Positions 4,549-52,729 of a stretch of 64,000 bases of DNA are shown one piece after another. Each line of letters begins with the position of its first letter. The first letter of the stretch is position 1. The notes beneath the pieces are model-generated. The model had not been told where the DNA came from. It did not search any database and saw nothing but the letters and a program-made list of their open reading frames with translations. Made by a program: the position numbers and the translations under genes. Origin of the DNA: Minisyncoccota bacterium (lineage in GTDB: Bacteria; Patescibacteriota; Minisyncoccia; Phycocordibacterales; UBA918); NCBI GenBank assembly GCA_937975855.1, contig CALJTT010000004.1:5583-69582 (forward strand), given 5' to 3'.

Positions 4549-5307
4549 TTATTGGTTGAAAAAGTCTGCAAGGATAATCGAAAAATCTCGGAAGCTCATT
4601 CTTCCATCACCGTTGAAATCCATTGTTTGCGATCTGCTGCTCCAGGCACCCATAAATGCACTTATGTCCTTCAGAGTTATCTTCCCATCGCCATTGACGT
4701 CTGTTTTTGCAAAATCTTTAACAGCAAAATTAATACTAGAAAAATCAGTGTTTTCGTCAAAATTAAGTAAAGAAAGCCGCATTCTGTCATCATCCATGGA
4801 AAGCACCTCAGTACCCTCTCCATCTCCCGCAACAAAATTGACATCTTTAACCTCTATGGTGTATTGCCCTGGTTCCAAGGCTCTGAAATTCAAAGTTGCG
4901 ATCTGATGTTTACCCAAAAAACCTCTTTTAAAGGTTCCTCCACTAAGCTTTACCGATGTGGTGTCTATTTCTGGATCTGCAGTCCAGATAGTGAGTACTG
5001 ATTGACCACGGTCAACTCCAAACACATCGACTTTACTTTTGGTGAATTCTACAGTTATTTCTACTGCATTAACTGGTGTAGTAACATCAGCATAAACAAC
5101 CACGGGAAAAACTGAACCCACTTCGATGGTGTTGGTTGCTGTCTCAAAATATACAGATGACATGTTGGACGAACCGGTTAAGGCGAGCAAGCTAGCAGTT
5201 GCAAGGCCGGTTAGAATTGCTGGGAACATAAACTTCACAGTAGAACTCGCTCGTCGTCTGTACATCAAGTTTTGAAAATATCTTTTGGTTTTAGCCCAGA
5301 AAAACAT
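4549..5307 (-). CDS. Secreted protein with cohesin-like domain plus C-terminal dockerin (adaptor-type cohesin+dockerin protein)
   Basis: Signal/TM (FPAILTGLATASLLALTG). The central ~130 aa match the cohesin-like pattern shared with 5999..7768 and 35159..36697 (VNAVEITVEF...SVLTIWTADP). C-terminal duplicated Ca-binding dockerin repeats DVNGDGKITLKDISAF / DFNGDGRMSFRDFSIIL. Confidence 0.5.
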   Translation of the reverse strand: MFFWAKTKRYFQNLMYRRRASSTVKFMFPAILTGLATASLLALTGSSNMSSVYFETATNTIEVGSVFPVVVYADVTTPVNAVEITVEFTKSKVDVFGVDRGQSVLTIWTADPEIDTTSVKLSGGTFKRGFLGKHQIATLNFRALEPGQYTIEVKDVNFVAGDGEGTEVLSMDDDRMRLSLLNFDENTDFSSINFAVKDFAKTDVNGDGKITLKDISAFMGAWSSRSQTMDFNGDGRMSFRDFSIILADFFNQ

Positions 5308-5313: not shown

Positions 5314-5988
5314 TTACAGTGCGGTTAGTTCTGCCCTAAGTTTATCTGCTTGTGTTTTAGAAAGAATCAAAGCTTCTTTAGTTTCTCTAACCTGAGAAAG
5401 AATAACGCCAATTTCCTCAGAGTCAGCTGCTCTTCCCTCTAACAAAGTGTCGATGATTTTCTTTTGTGAGCGCACAAGAGTCGAAAACAAATCGCTCTGA
5501 ACTTCTTCGTTGGCAATAAGAGATTTCCACTGGTCAAGAGAGTAGTTGTCGTTCTGCTTTTTACCAGTTAGTGACGAAAGTTGTTCTACGTAAGATCCGT
5601 AAACACCAATCTCGCGTGCAAATCTAGAAACCATCACAGCTTTTCGTTCTGAATAAAAATTTCCGCAAAGTACAAAGAGCTGCTCTAACTCAATCAATTC
5701 GTAACGCGGTAACACACTGTCGAGCGAGCCCAAGAGTTTGTTAAACCTACTTCTGTCATCAATGGCACAATCACGCACGATTGATTCTGTGATGCTGTCC
5801 GCGCCATTTCTAGCTGTCGTTTCTGCAATGGTCGATAGAAGAGCCTGTTGTTCGGCCAACTGTATTCTGATTGTAGATTCTAGATCTTCAGTCCGCTGGT
5901 TGACGATGTACGAGCTGAGTAAGGCTACTAATAATAAGAAAAGGATTCCCAATAAGAACCATTTATATTTGTGAGCACTTTCGATCAT
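5314..5988 (-). CDS. N-terminally membrane-anchored helical/coiled-coil protein of unknown function
   Basis: 224-aa ORF with single N-terminal TM (WFLLGILFLLLVALLSSYIV). The remainder is predicted helical. Tight spacing with flanking genes. Confidence 0.45.
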   Translation of the reverse strand: MIESAHKYKWFLLGILFLLLVALLSSYIVNQRTEDLESTIRIQLAEQQALLSTIAETTARNGADSITESIVRDCAIDDRSRFNKLLGSLDSVLPRYELIELEQLFVLCGNFYSERKAVMVSRFAREIGVYGSYVEQLSSLTGKKQNDNYSLDQWKSLIANEEVQSDLFSTLVRSQKKIIDTLLEGRAADSEEIGVILSQVRETKEALILSKTQADKLRAELTAL

Positions 5989-5998: not shown

Positions 5999-7768
5999 TT
6001 AGTCTTTTTCGGCTAGTTTTGTAACATCTTGGATTTCCTTTTCGACTGCTCGCTGTGAATTTTGAAGCGCCTTGTCGAATGTTTCTATCATAGCAGCTTC
6101 TGCCTTGGTTAGCTTGTTGGTTTTACGAGATTTGCGCAGGTTTGCCTCTTGCGACTGCAGGTCGGTTTGCAGGCTTGCGAATTCACGATGCAGAATATCC
6201 AAGGCTTCAGAAGATTCTCGCCCCACAGCTCCACGGAATTTTTGAAAAACGAAGAGGAGATACCAAATTCCGAAGAACAATAACATCGTTAACAGAAGTA
6301 ACGGAACAAGAATAGACATTGCGTTAACCACCTGACTTCCTAACCTGATGTACCCGGGCTCTTGAACAGCGATACGCTTAATTTCTGAAATTTCGCTTTG
6401 CGCACCGTGCTGGTCGATAGACTGTGCAGATACTTCGTATACGCCAGAATACAGAACTCCTTCTGGAATAAAGGCAAATTCTCCGGCTTCGTTCGCTGTG
6501 ATCTCGTAGACATTGGGTTCACTACCAACGCGTTTGAAAAAAATCGTTATCGTAGAGTTCGGCCTAGAAATTCCTTTAATCACTGGTATCACGTCACCAC
6601 TCATCTCTGTTGGAACATCGGTGAAGGCGGGCTTTTCAAAAGACTCGATAGTGAAAGAATGGGTCGCAATCAGACTATTGCCAGCGTGGTCAAAAGCCTC
6701 GATGATAACTGTGTGGTAACCAGGATCTAACCTGGGCAAAGTAAGAGTGCCAGATGCAGTTTTATCCGTAAATTCATAAGGTTCTTCGTTATCCAGCTTT
6801 ACAAGATAACGGTTAATTCCAGATGTAGAATCCTTAGCGACGAGATTTAGTGTCTGTTCTGGCGCAGACATGTCAGCGTCTTGTGGCGAAAGAATTTCAA
6901 AACTAGCAGGTGCCATAGTGTCAACTGCCAAGCGATAGCTCGACACCTTACCCCAACCATCTGCATTCTTGAACTGGATATGGAAATAAGAAATTCCCTC
7001 TTCGAGTTCTGTTAGTGTGATTGTTCTGATAGGATTTTCGTAAACCTTGGTTGGAACAGTTGACGGTGAACCATTGAGCAGCGTACGAACTGCAGTAACG
7101 CCTGTGGGTAACGACCACGACAGCAGAGCTGTATTAGTCGCATGCCAAGCTGCTGGATTATCATGAGTCTTAGAGACAATCTTTGGGGCTGCAGGAGTGT
7201 TGGCCGGGGCGATATATTCAATAATCCGTTCTGGCTCGGGCGCAGTTGTCGGTGCTTGGATTGTAAAAGATCCACCATTCATGGCCGTCAGAACGTTAGT
7301 GCCGCGGCCGTCATTGGCCAGAACAGAGCCGTTGCTAAACGTGACTCTTGGGGATCCTGCATTTTTTGCCCTAAATGTTATAGACAAAACTGTTCCCACA
7401 CTGCCAGAGTAACCGGCAGGAACACCGCCGCTAAAGGTAACCGTACCAGCCGCGTTAGAAAAGGCTGGTTCAGCCACCCAAAGATTAAAAATCGAACCAG
7501 AGCGATTGATAGAAACGACCGAAAGCTCGTTTGGATTAAAATTTATCGTACCTTCTGCTGCGTTAACCGGATCACCATTGGTAACAACCTGGACTCTAGC
7601 CGTAAAAGTTGCACCGGCATTATAAACACCAGTGTCAGGATTTAAACGCAAAGACGCAGCTTCTGCTGTGTTCGCAAAAAAACTGAATGCAGCTAAAACT
7701 GCGGCGAAAAATATGTGCGGCGTGGTTTTATTGGATATTGTCATAGTGGCGATCGTTAGGGTCTTCAA
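5999..7768 (-). CDS. Type-I membrane protein: signal peptide, N-terminal cohesin-like domain, Ig/FN3-like domains, C-terminal TM helix and conserved cytoplasmic coiled-coil tail (cohesin-bearing cell-surface anchor)
   Basis: Signal (FFAAVLAAFSFFANTAEA). Cohesin-like block LRLNPDTGVYNAGATFTARVQVV...VNAAEGTINFNPNELSVVSI..SIFNLWVAEP...TVTFSGGVPAGYSG. TM (AMSILVPLLLLTMLLFFGIWYLLFVF) followed by a charged helical tail. Paralog of 35159..36697 and 7728..8792. Confidence 0.55.
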   Translation of the reverse strand: MKTLTIATMTISNKTTPHIFFAAVLAAFSFFANTAEAASLRLNPDTGVYNAGATFTARVQVVTNGDPVNAAEGTINFNPNELSVVSINRSGSIFNLWVAEPAFSNAAGTVTFSGGVPAGYSGSVGTVLSITFRAKNAGSPRVTFSNGSVLANDGRGTNVLTAMNGGSFTIQAPTTAPEPERIIEYIAPANTPAAPKIVSKTHDNPAAWHATNTALLSWSLPTGVTAVRTLLNGSPSTVPTKVYENPIRTITLTELEEGISYFHIQFKNADGWGKVSSYRLAVDTMAPASFEILSPQDADMSAPEQTLNLVAKDSTSGINRYLVKLDNEEPYEFTDKTASGTLTLPRLDPGYHTVIIEAFDHAGNSLIATHSFTIESFEKPAFTDVPTEMSGDVIPVIKGISRPNSTITIFFKRVGSEPNVYEITANEAGEFAFIPEGVLYSGVYEVSAQSIDQHGAQSEISEIKRIAVQEPGYIRLGSQVVNAMSILVPLLLLTMLLFFGIWYLLFVFQKFRGAVGRESSEALDILHREFASLQTDLQSQEANLRKSRKTNKLTKAEAAMIETFDKALQNSQRAVEKEIQDVTKLAEKD

Positions 7769-8792
7769 AAGACTGGGCTGCTGCTTCTGGCTGTGTTCTA
7801 AGTGACTCGATTTCTTTGTCTACACGGCGCTTTTTGTAACGCTTAAATACAGTAAACGCGAACACGAAAGCCATCAGGAATAATCCAAGGTAAAGTATGT
7901 AACTAAGGATTTGGTAAGGTGTAATTGTTCGAAGTTCTGGATCGGGAATGTAATTTGCGATGTACTCGTTCCCCGCTTTATCTATCGCCTTGACACGAAC
8001 TACACTGTTAAGTGATTGATCTTCCAGCACATAAGGGCTTCTAGACTCGATCCAAGGTGCGTCAGCTCTCCCCCACAAAAACGCGCTAGTTTGTGACAAC
8101 GGTTCCTCCATAACCTCGTAGTGGTCGATTCCAGTTTCTTTGTCAGTCGTGTTGAAACTAATATAGTACTTGCCGCTAAAGGCTTTTTCTTCTTTATCTA
8201 GAATGATACCAAAGGCTTGAGGATCGTTATCATCAGCCGAAATTCTGTCAGTCCATGGGTCGGAAACAACCGCACTGGCGCCAGCCAGTATCGTTAACGT
8301 GGTAGGCAGCAATGTTGTTTTGGCGACAGTGCCAAAACCGTCGTTCAAATAAACCATAGTGTCCTTTGAAAAATCAACGACTGCAGCTTCCTCTTGTCCA
8401 GACTCCACATCAGAACGAACAACTATTTCGAATAACGTATTGGTTAAACTTGGATCGCCGTCAATTCTGCCACAATAGCCGTTTGGTATACCTCCAGCAA
8501 AAGAAATCTGATTTGATTCCGGGTTCAAAGTTGGTGGCTCCACCCACATTGAAAAAATTGACTCGCCAGAAGACACATCAACCGCGTTTATAGGGCCATC
8601 CAGGGAAAGCACACCTGAAGCGGCGTTGATACATTCATTCACAGACTCGTCAGTGTCGATTCTGACCTTAAGTATGAGCGCATCCCCTCTTCCTAAAGTT
8701 TTGGTCGCAGGGTCGATATACAAAGTAGCCGCCTCAACCTGCGCAGCAAGAAAAAAAGGCAGTACAAAAAACGGAACCAAACGACGTAGCAT
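7728..8792 (-). CDS. Type-I membrane protein with N-terminal cohesin-like domain and C-terminal TM anchor (shorter paralog)
   Basis: Signal (LVPFFVLPFFLAAQVEAA). LYIDPATKTLGRGDALILKVRID...INAVDVSSGESIFSMWVEPP...ISFAGGIPNGYCG aligns with the other cohesin-like domains. C-terminal TM (ILSYILYLGLFLMAFVFAFTVF) plus basic tail. Confidence 0.5.
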   Translation of the reverse strand: MLRRLVPFFVLPFFLAAQVEAATLYIDPATKTLGRGDALILKVRIDTDESVNECINAASGVLSLDGPINAVDVSSGESIFSMWVEPPTLNPESNQISFAGGIPNGYCGRIDGDPSLTNTLFEIVVRSDVESGQEEAAVVDFSKDTMVYLNDGFGTVAKTTLLPTTLTILAGASAVVSDPWTDRISADDNDPQAFGIILDKEEKAFSGKYYISFNTTDKETGIDHYEVMEEPLSQTSAFLWGRADAPWIESRSPYVLEDQSLNSVVRVKAIDKAGNEYIANYIPDPELRTITPYQILSYILYLGLFLMAFVFAFTVFKRYKKRRVDKEIESLRTQPEAAAQSFEDPNDRHYDNIQ

Positions 8793-8840: not shown

Positions 8841-8866
8841 ACAAAAAACCCACCTCGTGGTGGGAG
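8841..8866 (-). terminator. Rho-independent terminator downstream of the WxL-like gene 8912..10042 (minus-strand sense: cccacc-acga-ggtggg then UUUUUUGU)
   Basis: Plus strand aaaaaacccacctcgtggtgggagatagg. The revcomp gives the hairpin followed directly by a T6 run. Confidence 0.7.
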
Positions 8867-8911
8867 ATAGGATTTTTTGTTTGTAACTCCAAGCTTAGAG
8901 TCCAGTTTCGG

Positions 8912-10042
8912 CTAAAAAACTGGTGTTGCTACGTATGTCAGCGTAGCGGTGTAGTCGTCTGCAGCCTCCTGCAGAGCAGTAACTTCTACTTTGTAGATGA
9001 CATTGGCTGTCCCTTCACCAGCAACAGACCCGTCTGTTGGTCCGTCGTGTCGAAACACTTCAACTGGTGACGATGAGGCCGAAACGAAGTTCGCTCCTCC
9101 AGCGTATAGGTCAGTCAAACCTGATGTAAGAGTTGTGTCATCTGATGATAGTCCCCAGTGACCAGCTTCGTTTTCAAGTCCGGGCGTAGCACCTGGAGCT
9201 GCCCACGCAGTTGGTGTTCCTGTGTAACTACCATCAACGAATCCGTCAATATCAGCACCTGTTGCTGATGACAGCTGTTGATCTGCAGCGACTGTTACCA
9301 CAAAACCATTTGAAGCGTTTGTAGACACTTCTAGACTTTGAGCAGCAGTACTGGCAGTATCGGCAGCCAATTCACCAAACGGAATAGTTGTAGACGAAGT
9401 GTCACCACCAGTGGTGTCACTTCCTACAACCGTTCCAGCTGCAACTCCGTTGATTGTGAAAGTGAAAATCGTATCAACTGTAGCAGTAACTGTTACTGAA
9501 TTTACAATTGCTACTCTAGTTTCACCCGTATCAGCAGAGCCAGAAGTAACGTTAATCTCGTATGAACCTTCTGTAGCTGGATTTGTGATCTGGTTTACGC
9601 CAGCGTCTGCATTTGTACCGATTTGAATTGTCACTGTAGCGTTAGCTGCAATAACACCGGTTCCAGATGTCAGAGTAATGACTTGACCAGCTGCGCCTAC
9701 TCCCCATGTAGCTGCTGCTGGAGCGGCTGCAAGAGTTTCGTCGACGCCGTCGACCGCAAGGTCGACATCACCGAACGCGATACCTGCAACACCAGTGAAC
9801 GCTGGATCAAGTGTAACTGTAATAGTTTCACCTGCTGCTACACCGGTTGGTGCAACGAATTCAATGGTGTGATCTGAGACTACGCTGGGCGCAGAATCAG
9901 TAAGGGTATCGCTAAAAGTTGTGACATTTGCCGCTTCTGCGAACTGCAGAACTGGGAAGCCTAGTGACCATAGGATCACAGCAAGACTTGCCACTGCGGC
10001 GATTGCTTGGAGTACTGAGAACGCATGATTTTTGCGCGTCAT
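8912..10042 (-). CDS. Secreted Thr/Ala/Gly-rich surface protein with WxL-like C-terminal domain (G-H-W-G-L ... T-L-T-Y-V-A-T-P) and conserved N-terminal T-x-F-S-D-T-L-T-D-S motif. Likely an abundant, monocistronic structural/surface protein.
   Basis: 376-aa ORF with N-terminal hydrophobic signal/anchor. C-terminus has GHWGL then a terminal YTATLTYVATPVF resembling the two-motif WxL cell-wall-binding domain. Strong intrinsic terminator immediately downstream (8841..8866) and a 240-nt leader upstream. Paralog at 40864..41991. Confidence 0.5.
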   Translation of the reverse strand: MTRKNHAFSVLQAIAAVASLAVILWSLGFPVLQFAEAANVTTFSDTLTDSAPSVVSDHTIEFVAPTGVAAGETITVTLDPAFTGVAGIAFGDVDLAVDGVDETLAAAPAAATWGVGAAGQVITLTSGTGVIAANATVTIQIGTNADAGVNQITNPATEGSYEINVTSGSADTGETRVAIVNSVTVTATVDTIFTFTINGVAAGTVVGSDTTGGDTSSTTIPFGELAADTASTAAQSLEVSTNASNGFVVTVAADQQLSSATGADIDGFVDGSYTGTPTAWAAPGATPGLENEAGHWGLSSDDTTLTSGLTDLYAGGANFVSASSSPVEVFRHDGPTDGSVAGEGTANVIYKVEVTALQEAADDYTATLTYVATPVF

Positions 10043-10283
10043 AGTACTCTACGTTGTATTAGTTCATAGTTGTCGCGTGTGTGGTACACGCATGTGACAA
10101 TTTCTCCAACAAGGTCTCCACTCCGAATCGGAGAAAACCACGAACGCATTCACAGAGCCACACCGGCTGAAGTGCTCGCGCAAAAAGCGCTTAGTACCAC
10201 TAATTGAGTACTACCTCCATGAATACTCCCCTATTGTACTTTGGTCAGTTAAGACAAACTTCGATTATGCACAAAAACTGCTG

Positions 10284-11423
10284 CTATCCAGTCCAGTTAA
10301 ACAACAAAATTGAGAAGTCTTCAAGTCCCACGTTGCCGTTTTGGTTTATGTCAGCCGGAGGATCAGAATCTCCACCGTTTGATTGCCACCAGAAAATTAA
10401 AATCGAGAAGTCTATCAGGTTTATAAAAGTGTCTCTGTTGAGGTCAGACGGCTGTGTTGCTTGACCATCAACCCCTACAAACAACTGTAGCGATGTGCTG
10501 AAGCCACTCTCCAGGGTCAAAGGCGGGTTTCCAACCAATGAGCGCGCTCGTAGAATATGCTCTGCAATAGCAAGCGTTCCTGTATCGAGCAAAAACGACC
10601 AATCACCATCTGCATTTGTTTGTACAGTTTCAACAACATCACTATCGTCTATGTGAATTTCTATTTGTGCGTCGGGTGGACCCTGTCCTTCAATCAGAAC
10701 CTGGCTGCCAGGGTCTGCGTTCTGATTTTCCGCACGCAACGTAGGAGGCAGTATGATTCCTGACAAATTCGTGATCGCGCCTTGTGTGACGTCAAAAGTG
10801 TTATTTTGGGTGATCGATCTAACGTTTTCGTTGTCAGTAGACCAAACACCAACCGTTGCAGTTCCTGGTTCAGCTTCAACAGAGAACTCAAATTCGCCGT
10901 CATTGTCAGCCCTTACTGTTCCGACACTTTCTGTATCCAAAAGAAAGTTTATGGTGCTGCCTGGATACCCGGTACCACGGATATTAATAATAGTATCTCC
11001 CAGTTCGACTTCGGAACCACCGCCTGAAGAACCGCCGCCTGAAGAACCACCACCACCAGTACCAGCAGGCTCTACCGTACAAGACGAGGAACAGAAATCG
11101 CCGTCATCGTTATTGCCGTCGTCACATTCCTCCGCAAAGACAGTTTGTAAAATACCATCCCCACAGTACGGGCCGAATTCGCACATAGAGTCACATTGTC
11201 GGCCAGCGATTGTCTGGCTGTATGCGCCAATTTCTGCTGGCACGACATCACACTCTTCATTACTGTCGACAACACCGTCACCACAAATACTAATTTCCAA
11301 AGTGGTAGTTGCCACCCGTTGAGCCGCTACAATGTGCGGGAAAATTATGAATAGAATGATTGTAAATAAAAAGTAACGACTCATGTTAACGACCTTTCTG
11401 TTTTCGACGCACGAACACGACAT
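10284..11423 (-). CDS. Secreted protein with Cys-rich CGDG...EECDDGN repeats (Myxococcus-type cysteine-rich repeat), Gly/Ser linker, Ig-like region and C-terminal dockerin. Probable start at the internal Met (MSRYFLF..., ~11384).
   Basis: Signal peptide FLFTIILFIIFPHIVAAQ. Repeats CGDGVVDSNEECD and CGDGILQTVFAEECDDGNNDDGDFCSSSCT. Linker GGGGSSGGGSSGGGS. Dockerin repeats DLNRDTFINLIDFSILIF / DINQNGNVGLEDFSILLFNWTG. Confidence 0.55.
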   Translation of the reverse strand: MSCSCVENRKVVNMSRYFLFTIILFIIFPHIVAAQRVATTTLEISICGDGVVDSNEECDVVPAEIGAYSQTIAGRQCDSMCEFGPYCGDGILQTVFAEECDDGNNDDGDFCSSSCTVEPAGTGGGGSSGGGSSGGGSEVELGDTIINIRGTGYPGSTINFLLDTESVGTVRADNDGEFEFSVEAEPGTATVGVWSTDNENVRSITQNNTFDVTQGAITNLSGIILPPTLRAENQNADPGSQVLIEGQGPPDAQIEIHIDDSDVVETVQTNADGDWSFLLDTGTLAIAEHILRARSLVGNPPLTLESGFSTSLQLFVGVDGQATQPSDLNRDTFINLIDFSILIFWWQSNGGDSDPPADINQNGNVGLEDFSILLFNWTG

Positions 11424-12333
11424 AAAGTATCGCGATCAAAATGGCAAACACCGGGAGCAAAATCGAAATCTTGTGTGCCAAAGACAAACCAACAAATCCA
11501 AAGTTAGCCGCCTGTACTGTGCCAGCAGGTAAAACAGTCAACGACAGGTCACCCTCCTGCTTAAGCTCGTCGCTGTTGAACACCCTATATCTGGCAATAT
11601 AACTACCGGCCGGCAATCGTGTCGGCAAAGATGCTGATACAGTTTCTGTGTTGTACGGTGAGATCTTGGTAATCTTCCCCACATTAGAAGTCTCCTCCAG
11701 TAAGACTTCGCCAGTTTTATCATAAATTCTGAACTCAACATCTGAAGGTGAGATTTCTACGTTACCAGTGTTCTCTATCAACATGTCGAAAACGATTTTT
11801 CCAGGGAAGAACAACCAAGCAAGTTTGGAACCTTCGTTCAGATCCGATACAGAAATTTTTCTGACTCTAAAATCTTCAATCTTTTTATCTATAACGGAAA
11901 GATTTATATCGACCCGCGCTCCTAATGAAATGTTAACTGCACCCTGTGTAACAACCCCGTCGGATGGCACAGTTCTGATTCTAATGGCACCTCCATACTC
12001 GGTAAATCCTGCGTCAGGCGGAACGCTGACACGAACCGTCATCGGCACTTTTTGAACACCGGCGGGTAATATGATCTCTTCGCCTTCAGCAATCTGAAGC
12101 CAACCTTCGAGGTCAGGGGCATCAATGGTTATCTCTGCCTTCTGCTCATCAGACGGATCGCTTCGGACCAATAGAATCTGTTGTTCGTAAATGGAGTTTC
12201 TGGTCAAGCTAGTGTTGCGCACGTACGGAGGAGTAATACCGAAGCCCGCTTGAACTACACTAATTTCAAGCGCAAGAAAAGCGACAAAGGTAAACACCAA
12301 AAAAAGCCAACTCTTCCGCTTCGATAAAATCAT
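11386..12333 (-). CDS. Cell-surface protein with signal peptide and C-terminal TM anchor plus basic tail, DUF916/CscA-like (partner of WxL-like proteins)
   Basis: 315-aa ORF with signal (LFLVFTFVAFLALEISVVQA). The ectodomain has the alternating-hydrophobic pattern typical of DUF916 (GFGITPPYV...ILLV.SDPS...ITIDAPD..W). C-terminal TM ILLPVFAILIAILYVVFV followed by RRKQKGR. Paralog at 39685..40749. Confidence 0.4.
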   Translation of the reverse strand: MILSKRKSWLFLVFTFVAFLALEISVVQAGFGITPPYVRNTSLTRNSIYEQQILLVRSDPSDEQKAEITIDAPDLEGWLQIAEGEEIILPAGVQKVPMTVRVSVPPDAGFTEYGGAIRIRTVPSDGVVTQGAVNISLGARVDINLSVIDKKIEDFRVRKISVSDLNEGSKLAWLFFPGKIVFDMLIENTGNVEISPSDVEFRIYDKTGEVLLEETSNVGKITKISPYNTETVSASLPTRLPAGSYIARYRVFNSDELKQEGDLSLTVLPAGTVQAANFGFVGLSLAHKISILLPVFAILIAILYVVFVRRKQKGR

Positions 12334-12426: not shown

Positions 12427-14328
12427 CTACCAGTCAACAGCTTCTGCAATAACGGCTGTAAATGTGTTCAATCCTTCGTAGCTACCAGCTACTGTAATCG
12501 GAGTCGGGTCAGCGCCACCAGGAACATAGATACCCCAGTAAGTTGTTCCCCTAGATGCTGTTGTGGTAGCCGTTGTTGTTGACTTCAGAACATCAAGTTC
12601 AAGTTCTTGGTTTGTAGTTGATGACAATACAAGTCCAGTTGTATTATATGCAACAGTTGTGTCAGAGAACTCCTGGTAAGTGGAGTCTATCGTCGAAGAG
12701 GAAGCTCCTCCACAAGGTGTTCCGACACTGAAGTTTGGACACATTGATTCACCTCTTACTTCTTGGTCAATACCGGTATTTCCGATGTTAATTATTTCAG
12801 AAGTAGTCGTGCCCGCGTCGCCACCTAGCAATGTATATCCATCACCTGGAGCGAGTGCGCCGTAAGGAATTTCAGCTGTTGCAAGGTCAAGGGCTGCAAA
12901 TTGAAGTACTTCGACACCGATGTTTGAAGCCACTAGACTACTAGTTGCAAAGTTGTCATCACTAGGAGCTACTGCTGCAAGCCAGTTTTCTGCCTCAAAC
13001 GGTGAAGCGACAGATCCGTTATCAGTTGCGTCAGCGACAAACCAAAGTGGGAATGTACAGTTAAACTCTTGCGTGTCATCAGTGATCCCAGTACAGCTAG
13101 TTGTAGAGGCTGTACATGTCAGATTCCAAGTAGAAGTTGCAACTCCGCTGGTGTAACAATTGTTTGGGTCGTAATCAGGAGTACCTGAGTTACAGCTGGT
13201 TGTCCCTATACCTGAACGATATACAGATACTTCAAAGCCAACAATTTCACTAGATGTGGCACCTGAACTGTTAATGCAGCTGTTTCCATCAGACGCAGTG
13301 AAGTCAAGCGAGAAGCCAGGGGTCTGATCACCAGGAACAGTCAGTGCTATATCAGCACCACCGTTAAGGTTAATGTTAGCCCCCAGAATCGTTGGAGCAA
13401 CGTTGTTGATGTCAAAAGAACCAACAATTGGAGCAGATGCTTCGTGTCCATGTTCGTCAACCAAGAAACCGACTGCGGGGTATGTTCCGTCACGGACCGG
13501 CGAACTAACTGCATAAGAAGAGGTGGCGTTAATTATGCCGTTGAAGGTTGAACTTCCAAGGGAGTTCGTAACACAGCTGTTAGTAGTAGTGCTGTAGTCG
13601 ATAGCTTGCTGACAAACTACAAGTGTTAGTGTGTCCGAAGCATCCACAATGTCAGGGTCAGTCGAAGTAGAGAAGAAGTTTAGAGTAGCTCCTGGATCAA
13701 CCGGTCCATCGTTGTAGAAGTCAGTTAGAACTGGTCGGCTGTTCATGTGGAAAGGAGGAGCTGTATCATCGGTAGTCGTACCTTGTGTTGCTATAGTTGT
13801 ACATTCAGGTTGTACCAAATCACCATCACAAACCCAAGCGAACCAGTCGTTTGATTCTGAGAATTGTGTACCAGGATCGTCAGCAAGCTCAACTGTGGTT
13901 GTTGAAACTAGTGCTACTGTGTCAGATGGTGTCGCTGTGGATACTCCCCACTGAACTCCTCCACCACAAGTTGGCGCCGCCCCGATCTGTGGTGTAGGCG
14001 AAGCGTTGGTGCTACATATCAATAAATAGTAGTCAGCCCCGTTGGCGTCGCTACCAACTGCTGTCCATTGAATTTCCTCACCAGAGTTAGTGGGAGTTGA
14101 AGTTGAAGACCCTCCGATTTCAAAAGGCTGAACAACAAAAGTTGGAGGAGTGTTCAAAACAGTCAAACTGGTGGTAGCGGTTTGCGCCGACACTCGCTGT
14201 AATTCTTGGTTACCCACATCCACCATCAAGGCAAACATGAAAACACAAACTCCTACTACGGCAGAAAGAATCGATATTCTTCCGGCTGTTTTGGCAAAAC
14301 GTGGCAATTCATCTAAGTTGTACGACAT
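12427..14328 (-). CDS. Secreted/N-anchored Thr/Ser-rich surface protein. It ends with the same Y-W-G-I...N-x-F-T-A C-terminal tag as the giant protein.
   Basis: 633-aa ORF with N-terminal TM (ISILSAVVGVCVFMFALMV). The C-terminus ...LELDVLKSTTTATTT..TTYWGIYVPGGADPTPITVAGSYEGLNTFTAVIAEAVDW parallels the giant protein end ...LELDLSKPTTTTPGVTDNLYWGIEVPFGSASRPHTGINSFTAIGD. Confidence 0.5.
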   Translation of the reverse strand: MSYNLDELPRFAKTAGRISILSAVVGVCVFMFALMVDVGNQELQRVSAQTATTSLTVLNTPPTFVVQPFEIGGSSTSTPTNSGEEIQWTAVGSDANGADYYLLICSTNASPTPQIGAAPTCGGGVQWGVSTATPSDTVALVSTTTVELADDPGTQFSESNDWFAWVCDGDLVQPECTTIATQGTTTDDTAPPFHMNSRPVLTDFYNDGPVDPGATLNFFSTSTDPDIVDASDTLTLVVCQQAIDYSTTTNSCVTNSLGSSTFNGIINATSSYAVSSPVRDGTYPAVGFLVDEHGHEASAPIVGSFDINNVAPTILGANINLNGGADIALTVPGDQTPGFSLDFTASDGNSCINSSGATSSEIVGFEVSVYRSGIGTTSCNSGTPDYDPNNCYTSGVATSTWNLTCTASTTSCTGITDDTQEFNCTFPLWFVADATDNGSVASPFEAENWLAAVAPSDDNFATSSLVASNIGVEVLQFAALDLATAEIPYGALAPGDGYTLLGGDAGTTTSEIINIGNTGIDQEVRGESMCPNFSVGTPCGGASSSTIDSTYQEFSDTTVAYNTTGLVLSSTTNQELELDVLKSTTTATTTASRGTTYWGIYVPGGADPTPITVAGSYEGLNTFTAVIAEAVDW

Positions 14329-14423: not shown

Positions 14424-15638
14424 TTATTCGTACCTAATCGCATCCAGTGGGTTCAAAGTAGAAGCTCGTCTTGCGGGAAATATTCCTGTTAGGTACCCAA
14501 CGGCAGCTGAGAATATAGCAATGAAAGCTAGGAAGTCCAAAGGAAAAGCAAATAATGAAACTGCCTGTCCACCATACTGACCCGCAATAAAGTTGAGGAA
14601 CAGGTTAACCGTTACCCCCAATATAACTCCCATCAAAATACCAGTCACTCCCCCTAGGAAACCTACAACGATTGATTCTGAAACAAAGAGATACTTCACG
14701 TCGTTTGGAGAGGCGCCAATTGTACGCATGATACCGATTTCTTTGGTCCGCTCTAGCAAGGTAACAGTCATGGTGTTGAACATACCGATAGCTGACACAA
14801 TAAGTGCAATTCCTCCAAATGTGGCCAAAACAGCCTGAATACCTTTGAAGATCTGCGTTGCTTGCTCAACAGTTTTTGATAAAGCGGTCACACGGTAACC
14901 TTCTTCAACTAGCCAAGCTTCCACCAAGGGTAGATTTTCGTTGTCCACAACATTAACCTGCACTCTTTCATATTCGTCGATGCCTACGTATTCACGCAAC
15001 TCTGGCAACATCATCAATGCGTTAAGAACGCCCTCTTCTTTGGTGATACCTTTTACTATGTATTCTTTGTCCAGAATAATCTCGTTGACCAAATCAGTTC
15101 CGTCATCCGCCGGTACCAGTAGACGAAAAGACACTCTTTCTCCAATAAAAGATTCGGCATCTTCGTCTTCAATTCCAAATAGTTTAAGCACCGCCGGTGA
15201 AAGCATGATCGACGAAGCGTCATTGATATCTTCTTCTACAAAAGCCTCTCCGGCACTAGGGGTAATACCGGCATATCGCAGATAGGCTGGCTCGGCACCT
15301 TGAACAAAAACGTTACCTGTCAGGCCTTTGTATGTGACCAAAGCTGGGAATCGCGCCAGCGGCGCTGCATCAACCACAGCCTCGTTTGCTTCAAATTTTT
15401 GAACAATTTCAGGTGTAAGGGTAAGACCTTGTGCGCCTGTAGCAGAAACACCTAATGACAACAAAGAGTCACCAAATACAATCTGCTCTAAGATAATTTG
15501 CTGCAAACCAAACCCTAGACCCACCAAAATAACCACTGCACCAGTTCCTACACCCATACCCAAAATCGTCAACCATGTACGCAACGGGTTGGTTTTAAAC
15601 ATTCGAGTGGATAGTTGCGCTAGGTCTTGAACTCGCAT
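14424..15638 (-). CDS. ABC transporter permease, MacB/FtsX family (N-terminal TM, large extracytoplasmic domain, C-terminal FtsX 3-TM bundle)
   Basis: 404-aa ORF. N-terminal TM LTILGMGVGTGAVVILVGLGFG. The C-terminus has FtsX-like helices (LATFGGIALIVSAIGMFNTMTVTLLERTKEIGIMRTIGA...). Placed 1 nt from the upstream ATPase gene. Confidence 0.7.
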   Translation of the reverse strand: MRVQDLAQLSTRMFKTNPLRTWLTILGMGVGTGAVVILVGLGFGLQQIILEQIVFGDSLLSLGVSATGAQGLTLTPEIVQKFEANEAVVDAAPLARFPALVTYKGLTGNVFVQGAEPAYLRYAGITPSAGEAFVEEDINDASSIMLSPAVLKLFGIEDEDAESFIGERVSFRLLVPADDGTDLVNEIILDKEYIVKGITKEEGVLNALMMLPELREYVGIDEYERVQVNVVDNENLPLVEAWLVEEGYRVTALSKTVEQATQIFKGIQAVLATFGGIALIVSAIGMFNTMTVTLLERTKEIGIMRTIGASPNDVKYLFVSESIVVGFLGGVTGILMGVILGVTVNLFLNFIAGQYGGQAVSLFAFPLDFLAFIAIFSAAVGYLTGIFPARRASTLNPLDAIRYE

Positions 15639-15639
15639 A

Positions 15640-16962
15640 TTACAGTTTGTAGCTTACGTCTACTCCTTGGGCAATAATTTTTTCGAAATATCTGGTCATG
15701 TCGTCGGCTTCGTTTTCTGAAAGCGCTAATCCTTTAGATCTGATCCCTTTCATTAACCTACTGTTGAACTCTTCGTCATTCGCTACACCAGTTACACGAT
15801 CAGCAATCAACTCGGTCATGTTTTCGTTTTGCTGTTTACTGAGCTTGATTCTGTGGTGATTTGCCAAGTGTTCACTCATGCGCTCGGCTAACTTGTCTTG
15901 CGAGAAGAAAATCGCGTCATTGTCTTTCCGCGCTCGGAAACGGCGAATATCATCAGAGTTTTTGATGATTCTTTCTGCCACTTTTGCCATACGCTTTGCT
16001 TCGTCTTCTGGAACCTCCACTCCCCCTCTTTCGCTTGGCTGCATAAGGCTTTTAATGAAAGAATCCCGATTGATTTTACCTTCGATGAACAAACCAACGG
16101 CGTGCTCCAGTCTGGCAATTTGTGAAAAAGTGTAGTCTTGTGTCAAAAAGTTGATCATACTTTTAACTCGCCAAGTTTCCACAGAGTCATATGGATACAA
16201 GCGTGCCAGCTGTTCTAGCTCAGTCACAATAGTCTCACCTTCACGAACAGGTTTGATCTGTTTTCGTTGTGGGTTAACCACTTCACGTAGGATTTTTCCG
16301 TCTTTGAGGTAATACACGCGGTGGGCGTAACTAAGGTGAGCCGCGTTATGTGACACCATAATAATAGTTCGTCGGTCGAACGTGTTAATTTCGTCAATCT
16401 TGTCCATCACCTGCTGGGTAGACACCGAGTCGAGGTTACCAGTCGGCTCGTCGGCCAGAAGAATCTTGGGATCGTTAACCATGCTGCGCGACACCGATAC
16501 ACGCTGCTGCTGACCTCCAGAAAGCATAGCGGGAATTTTGCCTGAGACGTGACCTACACCAAAGCGATCAAGCAGAGACTGGGCCCGGCGATCTCTGGTA
16601 GTTTTGTCAGCATCACAAAAAATCATCGGCAAAGCCACATTGTCGAGAACAGACAACGACATAATGAGGTTGAAGGACTGGAAAATAATACCCATCACGT
16701 GGCGCTGGAAGTAAACTCGCTCAGATGGAGGGTAAGAATAAACGTCATCCCCTTTTACCAACAAAGTGCCTTCACCTGGCGGTAGTGACCCCTGGATCGA
16801 ATACATGAGCGTGGATTTACCACACCCAGACGGACCAAAAAGAATGATGTATTCACCTTCGAAGATATCAGTGTTCACACCAGAAAGAGCCTTGAATTCA
16901 TTGCTTTTTCCTTGGTTATAGATGATCGATAGATCACGCGCTACGATAAGAGGCTTCGCCAT
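15640..16962 (-). CDS. ABC transporter ATP-binding protein (MacB/LolD-like) with an unusual ~200-aa C-terminal helical extension
   Basis: Walker A GPSGCGKST, signature LSGGQQQRVSVSRS, Walker B ILLADEPTGNLD, H-loop VSHN. After ~residue 235 there is an extra charged helical domain not typical of LolD/MacB ATPases. Confidence 0.75.
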   Translation of the reverse strand: MAKPLIVARDLSIIYNQGKSNEFKALSGVNTDIFEGEYIILFGPSGCGKSTLMYSIQGSLPPGEGTLLVKGDDVYSYPPSERVYFQRHVMGIIFQSFNLIMSLSVLDNVALPMIFCDADKTTRDRRAQSLLDRFGVGHVSGKIPAMLSGGQQQRVSVSRSMVNDPKILLADEPTGNLDSVSTQQVMDKIDEINTFDRRTIIMVSHNAAHLSYAHRVYYLKDGKILREVVNPQRKQIKPVREGETIVTELEQLARLYPYDSVETWRVKSMINFLTQDYTFSQIARLEHAVGLFIEGKINRDSFIKSLMQPSERGGVEVPEDEAKRMAKVAERIIKNSDDIRRFRARKDNDAIFFSQDKLAERMSEHLANHHRIKLSKQQNENMTELIADRVTGVANDEEFNSRLMKGIRSKGLALSENEADDMTRYFEKIIAQGVDVSYKL

Positions 16963-16965
16963 AAA

Positions 16966-18507
16966 CTATGCGCCAATCTTATTAACCCAACCAAACGTCG
17001 ATTCAAAGTTCTCGATAATCAAGTCGATGATGTTCTTTTCTTGGATCGGAGTGAACAGTACGAACTTTTCACTCTGAACTTGGTTACTCGCTTCGTCAAA
17101 ACAATTTAGCCAGAAAGTGTATACAGTTGCTGGAGCGAAGTCGATTATTACCTCGACATGTGTAGTGTTGTATTCGACCAACTCTTTCTCGATTTCGAAT
17201 TGCTCAGACGCACCAGAGGCTCCTTCTTCATACGTCATGATACAGCTAGCCGGTTCGTCAGTGACCCATTCAACAATCGTTTGAATACGCGATTCGCTAC
17301 CAGGGAACAAGGTCGAATCGTTAGTTACGTTAGTGATGATTGGTGGCTGTACGTCACGAACTGTAATGAACTGAATCGGCTGACTACGCACGCGGTCTCC
17401 GCCTGAGTTCTCGACGTTTACAAAAGCGACGTATCGGGTACCGAGCGTCAGGTCGGCAAGTCGCATTTGGTGAGTGGTAGCAAGGGTTGGCCGCCCAACA
17501 GAGTTCTGTGCCCCGGTGGTTTGGTCCTGGAAATCAATTAGGGCTTTGGTAGGAACGTTTGTGTCCCAAGCTAGAGTAGCGGCGTTTTCTTCAACTTTAA
17601 CTACACGAAGATTGCGGATTTCCGGTGCAGTGGCTTTGGTTTGAAAATCGTACACTCGACTTTCGCCAGTAATACCAAATTCGTCAGTTGAAAGTACCTT
17701 GAAACTATACTGGACAAAGGGATTTAGTCCGATGAGGCGGATTTCGTGGTCAGTAGTTTGCCCCTGTGTAGACGACTGGGAAAACTCAAAGTTCGTACCA
17801 TCAAACTGTGCTGTCGGTGAAAATAGTACTTCTGAACTGGCAGGCCGATCTGTTATCCATTTTACTAACGCAGTGTTGGTCTCAGGAATAACCGTCGGAG
17901 GACCAACAATAGTCAGATCCTCGGTGATACCCTTAATAGCCTTGACCGTTTCGTTGACAATTTCTTGCAAAACCTGAGGATTGGTAATTTCTTTGATTTC
18001 TTCGATGATTTCTTCAGATTTGATTTGTTCGTTGAATTTACCTGGCCCAATACCTGAACCGCTGCCGTCAGCCTCACCTGACTTTGGCGCTCCTGTTGTG
18101 TCGATGCGGTAGTCAGCAGAAATACCCTGGTTACCAAACTCGTCCGACGACACAACGCGGAAAAAGTAAGTACGACCAGGCTCCAAATCGTCTAAAGTTA
18201 TGGAGTGTTGCGTCTTATCAGCGACGGGAACACGGCTGATCCCATAGTTTGGCTGCAACCCGTAGTTAATTGCAGAGTCAGCTTCTTCGTCAGTTTCCCA
18301 AGTTATTTGCAGAGTTGATTCATCCACATTAATGATCTGCAGATTGGAGATTTCTGGCGGATCACGATCGTCTGATTGTGCAATAGCAAGACTTGGCATA
18401 CTCACTTGCAAAAGCAGCAAGAAAATTAAGAAGGTGTCTATAAAGAACCGGGATCTCATTGTTCTAATCCTAGCATGTGCTTGGTTGTGATTTAATAAGT
18501 AATTCAT
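16966..18507 (-). CDS. Secreted protein with ~4 fibronectin type III-like domains
   Basis: Signal (FLIFLLLLQVSMPSLAIAQS). Repeated FN3-like modules (PPEISNLQIINVDESTLQITWETD..., APEIRNLRVVKVEENAATLAWDT..., PPIITNVTNDS...IVEWVTDEP). Confidence 0.55.
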   Translation of the reverse strand: MNYLLNHNQAHARIRTMRSRFFIDTFLIFLLLLQVSMPSLAIAQSDDRDPPEISNLQIINVDESTLQITWETDEEADSAINYGLQPNYGISRVPVADKTQHSITLDDLEPGRTYFFRVVSSDEFGNQGISADYRIDTTGAPKSGEADGSGSGIGPGKFNEQIKSEEIIEEIKEITNPQVLQEIVNETVKAIKGITEDLTIVGPPTVIPETNTALVKWITDRPASSEVLFSPTAQFDGTNFEFSQSSTQGQTTDHEIRLIGLNPFVQYSFKVLSTDEFGITGESRVYDFQTKATAPEIRNLRVVKVEENAATLAWDTNVPTKALIDFQDQTTGAQNSVGRPTLATTHQMRLADLTLGTRYVAFVNVENSGGDRVRSQPIQFITVRDVQPPIITNVTNDSTLFPGSESRIQTIVEWVTDEPASCIMTYEEGASGASEQFEIEKELVEYNTTHVEVIIDFAPATVYTFWLNCFDEASNQVQSEKFVLFTPIQEKNIIDLIIENFESTFGWVNKIGA

Positions 18508-44014: not shown

Positions 44015-44043
44015 TCTTATGAGTATATATGAGTATATAAAAA

Positions 44044-52727: not shown

Positions 52728-52729
52728 AT

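What the first reader, a model, noticed from the sequence alone, without database searches (positions are those of the whole stretch)
8912..12333. csc/WxL-like surface module (WxL-like protein plus DUF916-like anchored protein) fused with dockerin/cohesin components, present twice
The same gene order recurs on both sides of the giant gene. Copy 1 is 10284..11423 (dockerin protein), 11386..12333 (DUF916-like, C-terminal TM) and 8912..10042 (WxL-like, terminator-flanked), with cohesin anchors at 5999..8792. Copy 2 is 35159..36697 (cohesin anchor), 37283..39238 (dockerin protein), 39685..40749 (DUF916-like) and 40864..41991 (WxL-like). In Lactobacillales and Enterococcus the DUF916 (CscA) and WxL (CscB/C) proteins form cell-surface complexes. 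Here that pairing is combined with cohesin-dockerin parts, which I have not seen described as a unit. The segmental duplication with divergence (paralogs ~40-50% identical by eye) suggests functional diversification of a surface-display system.
Basis: partly seen in the sequence, partly recalled or inferred. Interest (0 to 1): 0.8.

Follow-up and report, generated by a model that had tools for sequence, protein, structure and literature searches.

The report
Pam-like pilus locus with cohesin-dockerin anchors

Summary
All ORFs are at the stated coordinates. The component set (two-domain secreted protein, membrane-anchored two-Ig protein, dockerin protein, cohesin anchor) occurs on both sides of the 5516-aa gene. 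Gene order differs between the copies. Only the "WxL-like" pair is 40-50% identical (47%); the "DUF916-like" pair is 19%.

WxL is not supported: 0 of 39 members hit Pfam WxL, and profile comparison is non-significant. That family instead gives consistent sub-threshold hits to NCBIfam CPR_Pam_pilin_C. It also has the Pam pilin layout: nine-strand N-domain, conserved linker, C-terminal domain.

Cohesin and dockerin calls hold. One protein (37283..39238) fuses a pilin N-domain and linker to a dockerin.

Both arrangements recur in 80 loci from Paceibacteria genomes, so this is an old, fixed locus and not a recent duplication.

Best reading: a Pam-type donor-strand pilus with WxLIP-type chaperones, possibly anchored by dockerin-cohesin. 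It is a new variant of a known kind.

The parts
40864..41991 (-). Pilin-like protein 2 (375 aa): signal peptide, N-terminal beta-sandwich, conserved linker, C-terminal beta domain ending at the protein's C-terminus.
   Evidence: 47% identical to 8912..10042. Matches the pilin N- and C-domain HMMs at 9.5e-28 and 1.2e-82.
40811..40839 (-). Terminator-like hairpin plus U-rich tail directly after pilin gene 2.
   Evidence: Sequence read. Folding gives -20.3 kcal/mol, z -5.1, 0 of 200 shuffles as good.
39685..40749 (-). Chaperone-like WxLIP/DUF916-family protein 2 (354 aa): signal peptide, two Ig-like domains, two C-terminal hydrophobic segments.
   Evidence: PF06030 hits 42 of 42 orthologues. The window protein itself scores 16.9 bits, below the Pfam gathering threshold (GA) of 27.3. 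hhalign against Firmicute WxLIP gives 97.7%, E 1.4e-12. The only PDB hits are EfmWxLIP1, E 6e-4. TM scan.
39231..39662 (-). 143-aa membrane protein of unknown role, always between chaperone 2 and the dockerin protein.
   Evidence: Synteny in about 28 loci. No Pfam or NCBIfam hit.
37283..39238 (-). Fusion protein (651 aa): signal peptide, pilin N-domain plus linker strand, Gly-rich spacer, Ig domains, C-terminal dockerin. Proposed pilus-base terminator or adaptor.
   Evidence: Dockerin_1 scores 28.7 bits, above GA. The N-terminus against the pilin profile gives hhalign 99.4%, E 3e-21, 217 columns including the linker. HMM E 8.9e-14.
36701..37231 (-). Hsp20-family protein with a basic tail, a fixed member of the upstream module.
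   Evidence: PF00011 E 1e-9. Synteny.
35159..36697 (-). Membrane-anchored cohesin protein (512 aa): signal peptide, cohesin, Pro-rich linker, Ig, TM, coiled-coil tail.
   Evidence: Cohesin PF00963 scores 27.5 bits, above GA. TM at 411-429.
18511..35061 (-). Giant 5516-aa surface protein between the two modules. Its C-terminal domain is shared with 12427..14328.
   Evidence: ORF. DUF2341. C-terminal homology by BLASTP E 1e-14 and hhalign 99.7%. Both of its ends are syntenic in relatives.
16966..18507 (-). Secreted FN3-repeat protein (513 aa), a conserved locus member.
   Evidence: fn3 and Pur_ac_phosph_N hits. Synteny.
14424..16962 (-). MacB/FtsX-type ABC transporter pair: ATPase 15640..16962 and permease 14424..15638.
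   Evidence: ABC_tran 1e-30; MacB_PCD and FtsX hits. Synteny.
12427..14328 (-). 633-aa secreted or anchored protein that shares the giant protein's C-terminal domain.
   Evidence: Weak Tad-like N-terminal hit.
11386..12333 (-). Chaperone-like protein 1 (315 aa): signal peptide, two beta-sandwich domains, one C-terminal TM helix.
10284..11423 (-). Dockerin protein 1 (379 aa): signal peptide, Cys-rich repeats, Gly/Ser spacer, Ig domains, dockerin.
   Evidence: DUF4215 and Big_6 pass GA. Dockerin_1 scores 20.1 bits, below GA 22.9. It is 38% identical to the C-terminal 252 aa of 37283..39238, including the dockerin.
8912..10042 (-). Pilin-like protein 1 (376 aa), the flagged 'WxL-like' gene.
   Evidence: AF2 model with pLDDT 82.8: nine N-domain strands (41-179), unstructured linker (181-192), C-terminal beta domain (193-374). 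NF058581 CPR_Pam_pilin_C scores 21.8 bits, below GA 55; 33 of 39 and 45 of 68 family members also hit it. More than 1898 homologues, all in CPR.
8849..8871 (-). Terminator-like hairpin plus U-run directly after pilin gene 1.
7728..8792 (-). Membrane-anchored cohesin-like protein (354 aa).
   Evidence: No Pfam hit. BLASTP to the cohesin regions of 5999..7768 gives E 1.8e-14 and to 35159..36697 gives 1.8e-7. TM at 295-313.
5999..7768 (-). Membrane-anchored cohesin protein (589 aa).
   Evidence: Cohesin scores 25.8 bits, above GA; Big_13 also hits. TM and coiled-coil tail.
5314..5988 (-). 224-aa N-terminally anchored protein of unknown role that is part of the conserved block.
   Evidence: Synteny. 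No Pfam family hit; one NCBIfam hit far below its curated cutoff (HpsJ_fam, 15.8 vs 60 bits).
4549..5307 (-). Small cohesin-like plus dockerin adaptor protein (252 aa).
   Evidence: Dockerin_1 scores 30.5 bits, above GA. The cohesin-like region matches 5999..7768 at E 7.6e-10.
2547..4466 (-). 639-aa protein of unknown function, the last conserved gene of the downstream block.
   Evidence: Synteny. No family hit.

Best explanation
The window carries the conserved surface-appendage locus of a Paceibacteria (Parcubacteria-type CPR) bacterium.

Core components. There are two pilin and chaperone pairs. The pilins are 8912..10042 and 40864..41991. [quoted passage not shown] The chaperones are 11386..12333 and 39685..40749. 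Each is a membrane-anchored, two-Ig-domain protein of the WxLIP (DUF916/DUF3324) kind with a PapD-like fold.

Proposed mechanism (inferred, by analogy with the Pam pilus of Ca. Mycosynbacter amalyticus and with the predicted WxLIP-WxL complex). The anchored chaperone completes the incomplete C-terminal domain of a newly secreted pilin with one of its own strands. That strand is then exchanged for the linker strand of the next pilin. The result is a linear, usher-less filament on a cell with no outer membrane.

Proposed anchoring (inferred). Protein 37283..39238 keeps the pilin N-domain and linker but replaces the acceptor domain with Ig domains and a dockerin. It would therefore cap the filament base and plug it into the membrane-anchored cohesin proteins (35159..36697, 5999..7768, 7728..8792). 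The other dockerin proteins (10284..11423, 4549..5307) would hang on the same sockets.

Shown: domain and family relationships, model architecture, conservation pattern, synteny.
Inferred: polymerisation, strand exchange, the dockerin-cohesin anchoring role, and any link to the giant protein and the MacB-type ABC transporter that sit between the two modules.
For: Pilin side:
- NCBIfam CPR_Pam_pilin_C is the only recurrent family hit. It matches 33 of 39 close members and 45 of 68 distant members, best E 1.5e-10.
- The AF2 model (pLDDT 82.8) has exactly nine N-domain strands, an unstructured linker and a C-terminal beta domain. This is the layout described for PamA and PamB (paper).
- The size is close to PamB's 38.7 kDa.
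- The C-domain and linker are the most conserved parts. Linker 176-187 is the fifth most conserved 12-residue window and the most conserved one outside the C-domain. The Pam paper reports the same pattern.
- The C-domain lies at the extreme C-terminus in almost all of the 150 best of 798 family representatives.

Chaperone side:
- PF06030 hits 42 of 42 orthologues.
- hhalign to Firmicute WxLIP gives 97.7%.
- C-terminal TM helices are present, as described for PamC and PamD.
- The WxLIP paper predicts that a WxLIP strand completes the WxL sandwich (PMC10599100).

Locus level:
- There are two pilins and two chaperones, as in the pam operon.
- There are terminator-like hairpins after both pilin genes.
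- The pilin N-domain plus linker is fused to a dockerin in 37283..39238.
- Three cohesin proteins have TM anchors.
- Both gene arrangements are invariant in 80 loci of Paceibacteria, Kaiserbacteria and Nomurabacteria MAGs. Five genomes have both arrangements on one contig, 40-45 kb apart.
Against: - All Pam-pilin hits are below the curated cutoff of 55 bits. For the window protein the hit covers only the first ~40 of 148 model positions.
- No PamA or PamB sequence or structure was available for direct comparison, and PDB sequence searches with pilin profiles found nothing.
- Fold searches with the pilin model give only generic Ig-like matches such as YweA, sortase pilins and MSCRAMMs.
- No multimer or chaperone-pilin complex could be modelled.
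- No PamT-like protein (acceptor domain only) or PamR-like protein was found in the window.
- The pilins lack the Cys pairs reported for PamA and PamB.
- The ATP-synthase neighbourhood reported for pam operons is absent.
- The C-termini of the giant and 633-aa proteins are not detectably pilin-like, so the filament tip is unidentified.
- The linker of 37283..39238 is recognised only in the context of the whole N-domain alignment, not by a linker-only HMM.
Confidence: 0.6

Rival explanations
1. Non-polymerising Csc/WxL-type surface complex. The membrane-anchored WxLIP-like protein holds one copy of the two-domain protein on the cell surface by strand complementation, as proposed for WxLIP-WxL in Firmicutes. 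The cohesin-dockerin parts display further proteins. No filament is made.
For: The anchored proteins belong to the WxLIP family by sequence and by fold. The WxLIP-WxL interaction model is strand insertion without polymerisation (PMC10599100). Like WxL, the C-domain is always C-terminal (PMC9772566). There is a faint collinear motif resemblance: the FG block, 'TNAxNGFVVTV' against 'tN..gW.L.v', and 'YTATLTY' against 'YTTTLTW'.
Against: The partner proteins fail every WxL test run here. They do hit the Pam pilin model. The strongly conserved inter-domain linker with alternating hydrophobic residues has no obvious role in a monomeric complex. The same applies to the existence of a protein with only the N-domain and linker.
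Confidence: 0.25
2. Generic cellulosome-like or S-layer-like display system. The two-domain proteins and the two-Ig anchored proteins are ordinary Ig-fold surface proteins with no chaperone-subunit relationship. The locus is organised around cohesin-dockerin display of the giant protein and enzymes.
For: Cohesin and dockerin domains are the only above-threshold Pfam calls in these genes. Fold searches of the pilin model return many unrelated Ig-like proteins, including cohesins.
Against: The giant protein has no detected dockerin. Neither does any enzyme-like protein in the locus. The pilin-chaperone adjacency is fixed in 80 loci. The chaperone family is specifically WxLIP and PapD-like. Identity of 60-70% across genera is unusually high for a mere decorative surface protein.
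Confidence: 0.1
3. Recent segmental duplication that is now diverging.
For: The same four component types lie on both sides of the giant gene.
Against: The two modules have different gene orders and extra genes. The chaperone pair is only 19% identical. Each module is an orthologous block conserved in many genomes. M. amalyticus likewise has two pilins and two chaperones.
Confidence: 0.03

Closest known systems
Pam pilus of CPR bacteria (PamA/PamB pilins, PamC/PamD membrane-anchored chaperones; Troman et al., bioRxiv 10.64898/2026.03.03.709456)
   Same: It is a CPR lineage. [quoted passage not shown] There is recurrent similarity to the NCBIfam Pam pilin C model. The chaperones have a PapD-like two-Ig fold and C-terminal TM helices. 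There are two pilins and two chaperones per genome. There is no usher and no outer membrane.
   Different: The sequence match is below the curated cutoff. The host class is Paceibacteria, whereas the paper reports mainly Saccharimonadia and Microgenomatia. The module is split in two around a giant gene. No PamT, PamR or PamE equivalents were recognised. The pilins have no Cys pairs. There is no ATP-synthase neighbourhood. Cohesin and dockerin proteins and a pilin-dockerin fusion are present, and the paper never mentions these.
Csc/WxL clusters of Lactobacillales (small and large WxL proteins plus WxLIP = DUF916+DUF3324+TM; PMC1534035, PMC9772566, PMC10599100; PDB 9i1y, 9i25)
   Same: The anchored proteins are WxLIP homologues over both domains (hhalign 97.7%). 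They sit next to a secreted protein whose conserved domain is at the extreme C-terminus. The predicted interaction is by strand completion.
   Different: The partner protein is not a recognisable WxL domain: there is no Pfam hit, only one W-x-L motif, and hhalign is non-significant. There is no LPXTG partner in the module. The host is CPR, not Firmicutes. Cohesin-dockerin parts are added.
Chaperone-usher pili of Gram-negative bacteria (Pap, Fim, Csu)
   Different: There is no usher and no outer membrane. The chaperone is membrane-anchored. The donor strand is an internal linker, not an N-terminal extension. The subunit has an extra N-domain. There is no sequence similarity.
Cellulosome-type cohesin-dockerin assemblies, including non-cellulosomal ones
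   Same: Type-I-like dockerins and cohesins pass Pfam thresholds. The cohesin carriers are anchored to the cell.
   Different: Anchoring is by TM helix, not by SLH domains or sortase. The dockerin carriers are Ig-repeat or Cys-rich proteins and a pilin fusion, with no enzymes. The assembly is embedded in a pilus-like locus.

Membership tests
WxLIP (DUF916/PF06030 + DUF3324/PF11797 + TM helix) | Sequence match to the DUF916 (PGBD) profile | tested here: met
   At family level, 42 of 42 orthologues of 39685..40749 hit PF06030, best 3.2e-9, and NCBI names some of them DUF916. The window protein itself scores 16.9 bits, below GA 27.3. The 11386..12333 family has no PF06030 hit.
WxLIP (DUF916/PF06030 + DUF3324/PF11797 + TM helix) | Two tandem Ig-like domains followed by a C-terminal TM helix, homologous over both domains | tested here: met
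WxLIP (DUF916/PF06030 + DUF3324/PF11797 + TM helix) | Encoded in a cluster with at least two WxL-domain proteins | tested here: not met
   No protein in the window or in 39 homologues matches Pfam WxL at E<=10.
WxL domain (PF13731) | Profile match to the WxL domain | tested here: not met
   0 of 39 members hit it. hhalign against small and large WxL alignments gives probability 1.8-8.5%, E 0.004-0.028.
WxL domain (PF13731) | Two conserved Trp-x-Leu motifs about 68 or 106 residues apart at the C-terminal end | tested here: not met
   Only one W-x-L is present (W296-G-L298). The C-terminal motif is Y370-V-A372, in 'DYTATLTYVATPVF'. The C-terminal location itself is met.
WxL domain (PF13731) | Fold similarity to a solved WxL domain (9i25_A) | tested here: inconclusive
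Pam pilus system (CPR) | Pilin C-terminal domain matching NCBIfam NF058581 CPR_Pam_pilin_C | tested here: inconclusive
   Hits are recurrent but below the cutoff. The window protein scores 21.8 bits against a cutoff of 55. 33 of 39 and 45 of 68 members hit it, best E 1.5e-10.
Pam pilus system (CPR) | [quoted passage not shown] | tested here: met
   The AF2 model has nine strands at 41-179, a linker at 181-192 without structure in the monomer, and a C-domain at 193-374. Whether the C-domain has an open groove could not be inspected.
Pam pilus system (CPR) | Membrane-anchored PapD/FimC-like chaperones encoded with the pilins | tested here: met
Pam pilus system (CPR) | Donor-strand exchange between subunits forming a helical filament | not testable with these tools
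   This needs multimer modelling or cryo-EM. The only indirect support is conservation of the linker and C-domain.
Pam pilus system (CPR) | Accessory PamT (acceptor-only tip) and PamR (strand plus FnIII plus TM anchor) | tested here: not met
   The pilin C-domain HMM hits only the two pilins in the window. 37283..39238 (N-domain, linker, dockerin) is a possible functional substitute for PamR.
Cohesin-dockerin | Pfam Cohesin (PF00963) and Dockerin_1 (PF00404) above gathering score | tested here: met
   Cohesin: 5999..7768 scores 25.8 and 35159..36697 scores 27.5, against GA 24.1. Dockerin: 37283..39238 scores 28.7 and 4549..5307 scores 30.5, against GA 22.9. 10284..11423 (20.1 bits) and 7728..8792 (no hit) qualify only through homology to those proteins.
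Cohesin-dockerin | Specific binding between the locus dockerins and cohesins | not testable with these tools
   This needs binding assays or complex modelling.

The most novel reading that the evidence does not exclude
The Pam pili of CPR bacteria and the WxL/WxLIP (Csc) clusters of lactic acid bacteria are two branches of one ancient, usher-less chaperone and donor-strand system of single-membrane bacteria. Under this reading, WxLIP is the membrane-anchored chaperone and the WxL domain is a diverged pilin acceptor domain. In Paceibacteria the resulting filament would be fixed to the cell not by a TM terminator but by a pilin-dockerin fusion that plugs into membrane cohesins, next to a giant adhesin. 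This would also imply that WxL clusters of Enterococcus, Listeria and Lactobacillus may assemble by strand exchange.
Probability: 0.3. Interest if true: 0.85.

Novelty: new variant of a known kind. Interest (0 to 1): 0.62.

Why it matters
Paceibacteria (Parcubacteria) are among the most abundant and least understood CPR bacteria, and how they attach to hosts is largely unknown.

- **A candidate attachment apparatus.** This roughly 40-kb locus is conserved gene for gene in dozens of genomes. It contains two pilin-chaperone pairs, cohesin and dockerin parts, a giant surface protein and a MacB-type ABC transporter.
- **A wider Pam distribution.** It extends the just-described Pam pilus idea to another CPR class.
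- **A testable anchoring principle.** A pilin-dockerin fusion docking onto membrane cohesins can be tested directly.
- **A link to Firmicute WxL clusters.** It provides a sequence-level bridge between a pilin with Pam-like features and the WxLIP proteins of Firmicute WxL clusters, whose mechanism is still debated. I found no paper in the searchable library that makes that link.

Tried and rejected
1. PDB sequence searches with the pilin alone, the pilin profiles A1 and A5, chaperone 1 alone and its profile A2 gave nothing useful.
4. I tested the idea that the giant protein and the 633-aa protein carry a pilin-type acceptor domain and act as tip adhesins. Their C-termini are homologous to each other (99.7%) but not to the pilin C-domain (probability <=1.5%), nor to WxL. 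The idea is dropped to speculation.
5. A linker-only HMM did not find further donor-strand carriers in the window.
6. I tested WxL homology of the pilin C-domain with small and large WxL alignments built from ten Firmicute plasmid loci. The result was non-significant, with only a collinear motif resemblance.
7. Literature searches for WxL plus donor strand, DUF916 plus CPR, and dockerin plus Patescibacteria found nothing relevant. The Pam paper and its supplement do not mention WxL, DUF916, cohesin, dockerin or Paceibacteria.
9. No tRNA gene in the window helps with placement.

Full report
**1. What is in the sequence**

In transcription order the region reads:

- 41991-40864: two-domain secreted protein, "PIL2"
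- 40749-39685: anchored two-Ig protein, "CHA2"
- 39662-39231: 143-aa membrane protein
- 39238-37283: dockerin protein, 651 aa
- 37231-36701: Hsp20
- 36697-35159: cohesin with TM helix
- 35061-18511: giant protein, 5516 aa
- 18507-16966: FN3 protein
- 16962-14424: MacB/FtsX-type ABC pair
- 14328-12427: 633-aa protein
- 12333-11386: "CHA1"
- 11423-10284: dockerin protein, 379 aa
- 10042-8912: "PIL1"
- 8792-7728 and 7768-5999: two cohesin proteins with TM helices
- 5988-5314: 224-aa protein
- 5307-4549: small cohesin-plus-dockerin protein
- 4466-2547: 639-aa protein

A UmuD/UmuC pair bounds the locus upstream.

The component set therefore recurs on both sides of the giant gene, but the order is not the same. 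Pairwise identities are as follows:

| Pair | Identity |
|---|---|
| PIL1 / PIL2 | 47% |
| Dockerin proteins | 38%, C-terminal 252 aa only |
| Cohesin anchors | 35% |
| CHA1 / CHA2 | 19%, E 0.003 |

CHA1 and CHA2 are related only at profile level (hhalign 96.8%). Each pilin-like gene is followed directly by a terminator-like hairpin and U-run (8871-8849 and 40839-40811). No such site was found upstream of PIL1.

**2. Organism and conservation**

PIL1 has more than 1898 homologues. All are unnamed or hypothetical, and those that carry names come from Kaiserbacteria, Nomurabacteria or Parcubacteria.

A scan of one genome per species returned 80 loci from Paceibacteria-type MAGs. Searching their ORFs with the window's proteins gives just two arrangements, repeated almost without variation:

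- giant C-terminus, FN3, ABC, permease, 633-aa protein, CHA1, dockerin-379, PIL1, cohesin-354, cohesin-589, 224-aa protein, cohesin/dockerin-252, 639-aa protein
- PIL2, CHA2, 143-aa protein, dockerin-651, Hsp20, cohesin-512, giant N-terminus

Five genomes have both arrangements on one contig, 40-45 kb apart and in the same orientation as here. The whole locus is therefore an old, fixed unit. The two modules are distinct orthologous groups, not a recent segmental duplication.

**3. The anchored proteins are WxLIP/DUF916 relatives with a PapD-like fold**

- CHA2 itself scores only 16.9 bits on PF06030, below the Pfam gathering threshold (GA) of 27.3. However, all 42 sampled orthologues hit it, best 3.2e-9, and NCBI names some of them "DUF916 domain-containing protein".
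- The CHA2 family profile finds only EfmWxLIP1 (9i1y, 9i25) in the PDB.
- Against ten WxLIP proteins taken from Firmicute plasmids, hhalign gives 97.7%, E 1.4e-12, over 254 columns, which spans both domains.
- CHA1 has no PF06030 hit. Its AF2 model (pLDDT 73) shows a signal peptide, two sandwiches and a TM helix.

**4. The "WxL-like" proteins are not recognisable WxL domains**

- No Pfam WxL hit appears in 39 family members even at E<=10.
- hhalign against small and large WxL alignments is non-significant, with probability 1.8-8.5%.
- Only one W-x-L motif is present.
- What recurs instead is NCBIfam NF058581, "CPR_Pam_pilin_C". It hits the window protein at 21.8 bits against a cutoff of 55. 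It also hits 33 of 39 close members and 45 of 68 distant members, best 1.5e-10.

That model stems from the Pam pilus of Ca. Mycosynbacter amalyticus (bioRxiv 10.64898/2026.03.03.709456). There the pilins have a nine-strand N-domain, a linker strand donated to the C-domain of the neighbouring subunit, and a truncated Ig-like C-domain. They are assembled by PapD/FimC-like chaperones (PamC, PamD) that carry a C-terminal TM helix.

The PIL1 model (pLDDT 82.8) has nine strands in residues 41-179, an unstructured linker at 181-192, and a C-terminal beta domain. Conservation is highest in the C-domain and in the linker "RVAIVNSVTVTA", as reported for Pam pilins. The C-domain sits at the very C-terminus in almost all of the 150 best of 798 family representatives, including proteins of 570-1022 aa with additional N-terminal sequence.

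The genome encodes two pilins and two chaperones, as M. amalyticus does.

**5. The cohesin-dockerin parts**

- Cohesin passes the Pfam threshold in 5999..7768 and 35159..36697.
- Dockerin passes it in 37283..39238 and 4549..5307.
- The remaining two proteins qualify only by homology to those.
- All three large cohesin proteins have a signal peptide and a TM helix.

The 651-aa dockerin protein begins with a pilin N-domain and linker (hhalign 99.4%, E 3e-21; HMM 8.9e-14), but it has no acceptor C-domain. By the logic of the Pam model, a subunit that can donate a strand but cannot accept one ends the filament at its base. Here it carries a dockerin, which suggests attachment to the membrane cohesins. 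This step is inference.

**6. Mechanism proposed**

The proposed sequence is:

1. The pilins are secreted through Sec.
2. The anchored WxLIP-type chaperone captures the pilin C-domain by strand complementation.
3. The chaperone strand is exchanged for the linker of the next pilin, which gives a linear filament.
4. The pilin-dockerin fusion terminates the filament and anchors it to the cohesin proteins.
5. The other dockerin proteins share those cohesin sockets.

Domain identities, architecture, conservation and synteny are shown. Polymerisation, strand exchange and anchoring are inferred. The roles of the giant protein, the 633-aa protein that shares its C-terminal domain, and the ABC transporter are unknown. 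Their C-termini do not resemble the pilin C-domain.

**7. Rivals**

- A non-polymerising WxL-like surface complex is the main alternative (0.25).
- A generic Ig-fold and cellulosome-like display system is less likely (0.1).
- A recent duplication is contradicted (0.03).

**8. Novelty**

The closest known systems are the Pam pilus and the Csc/WxL clusters. This locus combines a pilin with Pam-like features and a WxLIP-family chaperone. It adds cohesin-dockerin parts, including a pilin-dockerin fusion, and it lies in Paceibacteria.

The Pam paper and its supplement mention none of WxL, DUF916, cohesin, dockerin or Paceibacteria. I found no paper that links these topics.

I rate it a new variant of a known kind. 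The more novel reading is that Pam and WxL systems are one ancient chaperone and donor-strand family. The motif alignment is collinear with that idea, but nothing here demonstrates it.

Noticed in passing
window 18511-35061 and 12427-14328: The 5516-aa giant protein has a DUF2341 domain near its C-terminus. It shares its last ~315 aa with the 633-aa protein (30% identity; hhalign 99.7%). This shared C-terminal domain matches no family and is not pilin-like or WxL-like.
   Followed up: partly
window 14424-18507: A MacB/FtsX-type ABC pair and an FN3-repeat protein are invariant members of the conserved locus. The ATPase has a ~215-aa C-terminal extension. Their relation to the pilus-like parts is unknown.
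   Followed up: partly
window 36701-37231: An Hsp20-family protein with a Lys/Arg-rich tail always lies between the pilin-dockerin fusion gene and the cohesin-512 gene in related genomes. This is an odd, apparently cytoplasmic member of a surface locus.
   Followed up: partly
window 39685-40749 vs 11386-12333: Chaperone-like protein 2 ends in two hydrophobic segments separated by a basic loop. Chaperone-like protein 1 has a single TM helix.
   Followed up: no
window 46695-56608: This stretch holds a second large surface protein (2010 aa, with GSDH, PKD, CBM_4_9 and Big_7 domains), a GT2 glycosyltransferase, and a sortase (53983-54612) next to a 667-aa lamin-tail-domain protein. The pilin-like proteins have no LPXTG motif.
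   Followed up: no
window 42321-44071: A UmuC-like Y-family polymerase and a UmuD/LexA-like S24 peptidase lie directly upstream and mark the locus boundary.
   Followed up: yes
L075 and L079: Some related genomes carry extra tandem pilin and chaperone copies ahead of the upstream module.
   Followed up: no
L001, L005, L008, L012 and others: Many MAG records titled 'uncultured Candidatus Saccharibacteria bacterium' (TPA assemblies) carry exactly the same gene arrangement as records titled Kaiserbacteria, Nomurabacteria or Paceibacteria. The Saccharibacteria label is probably generic.
   Followed up: no
alignment A5 (distant pilin-family members): One distant family member hits the NCBIfam 'TafC family fimbrial protein' model (4.1e-11). 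Two long members carry a choice-of-anchor B domain.
   Followed up: no
PDB 9i25 / 9i1y: A solved complex of a WxL domain surface protein with EfmWxLIP1 was released in 2026. No paper describing it is in the searchable library. It would allow a direct structural test of the WxL-pilin idea.
   Followed up: partly
window 12427-14328, N-terminus: There is a weak, sub-threshold TadE/G-like hit (PF13400, E 0.0011) on the N-terminal membrane segment of the 633-aa protein.
   Followed up: no
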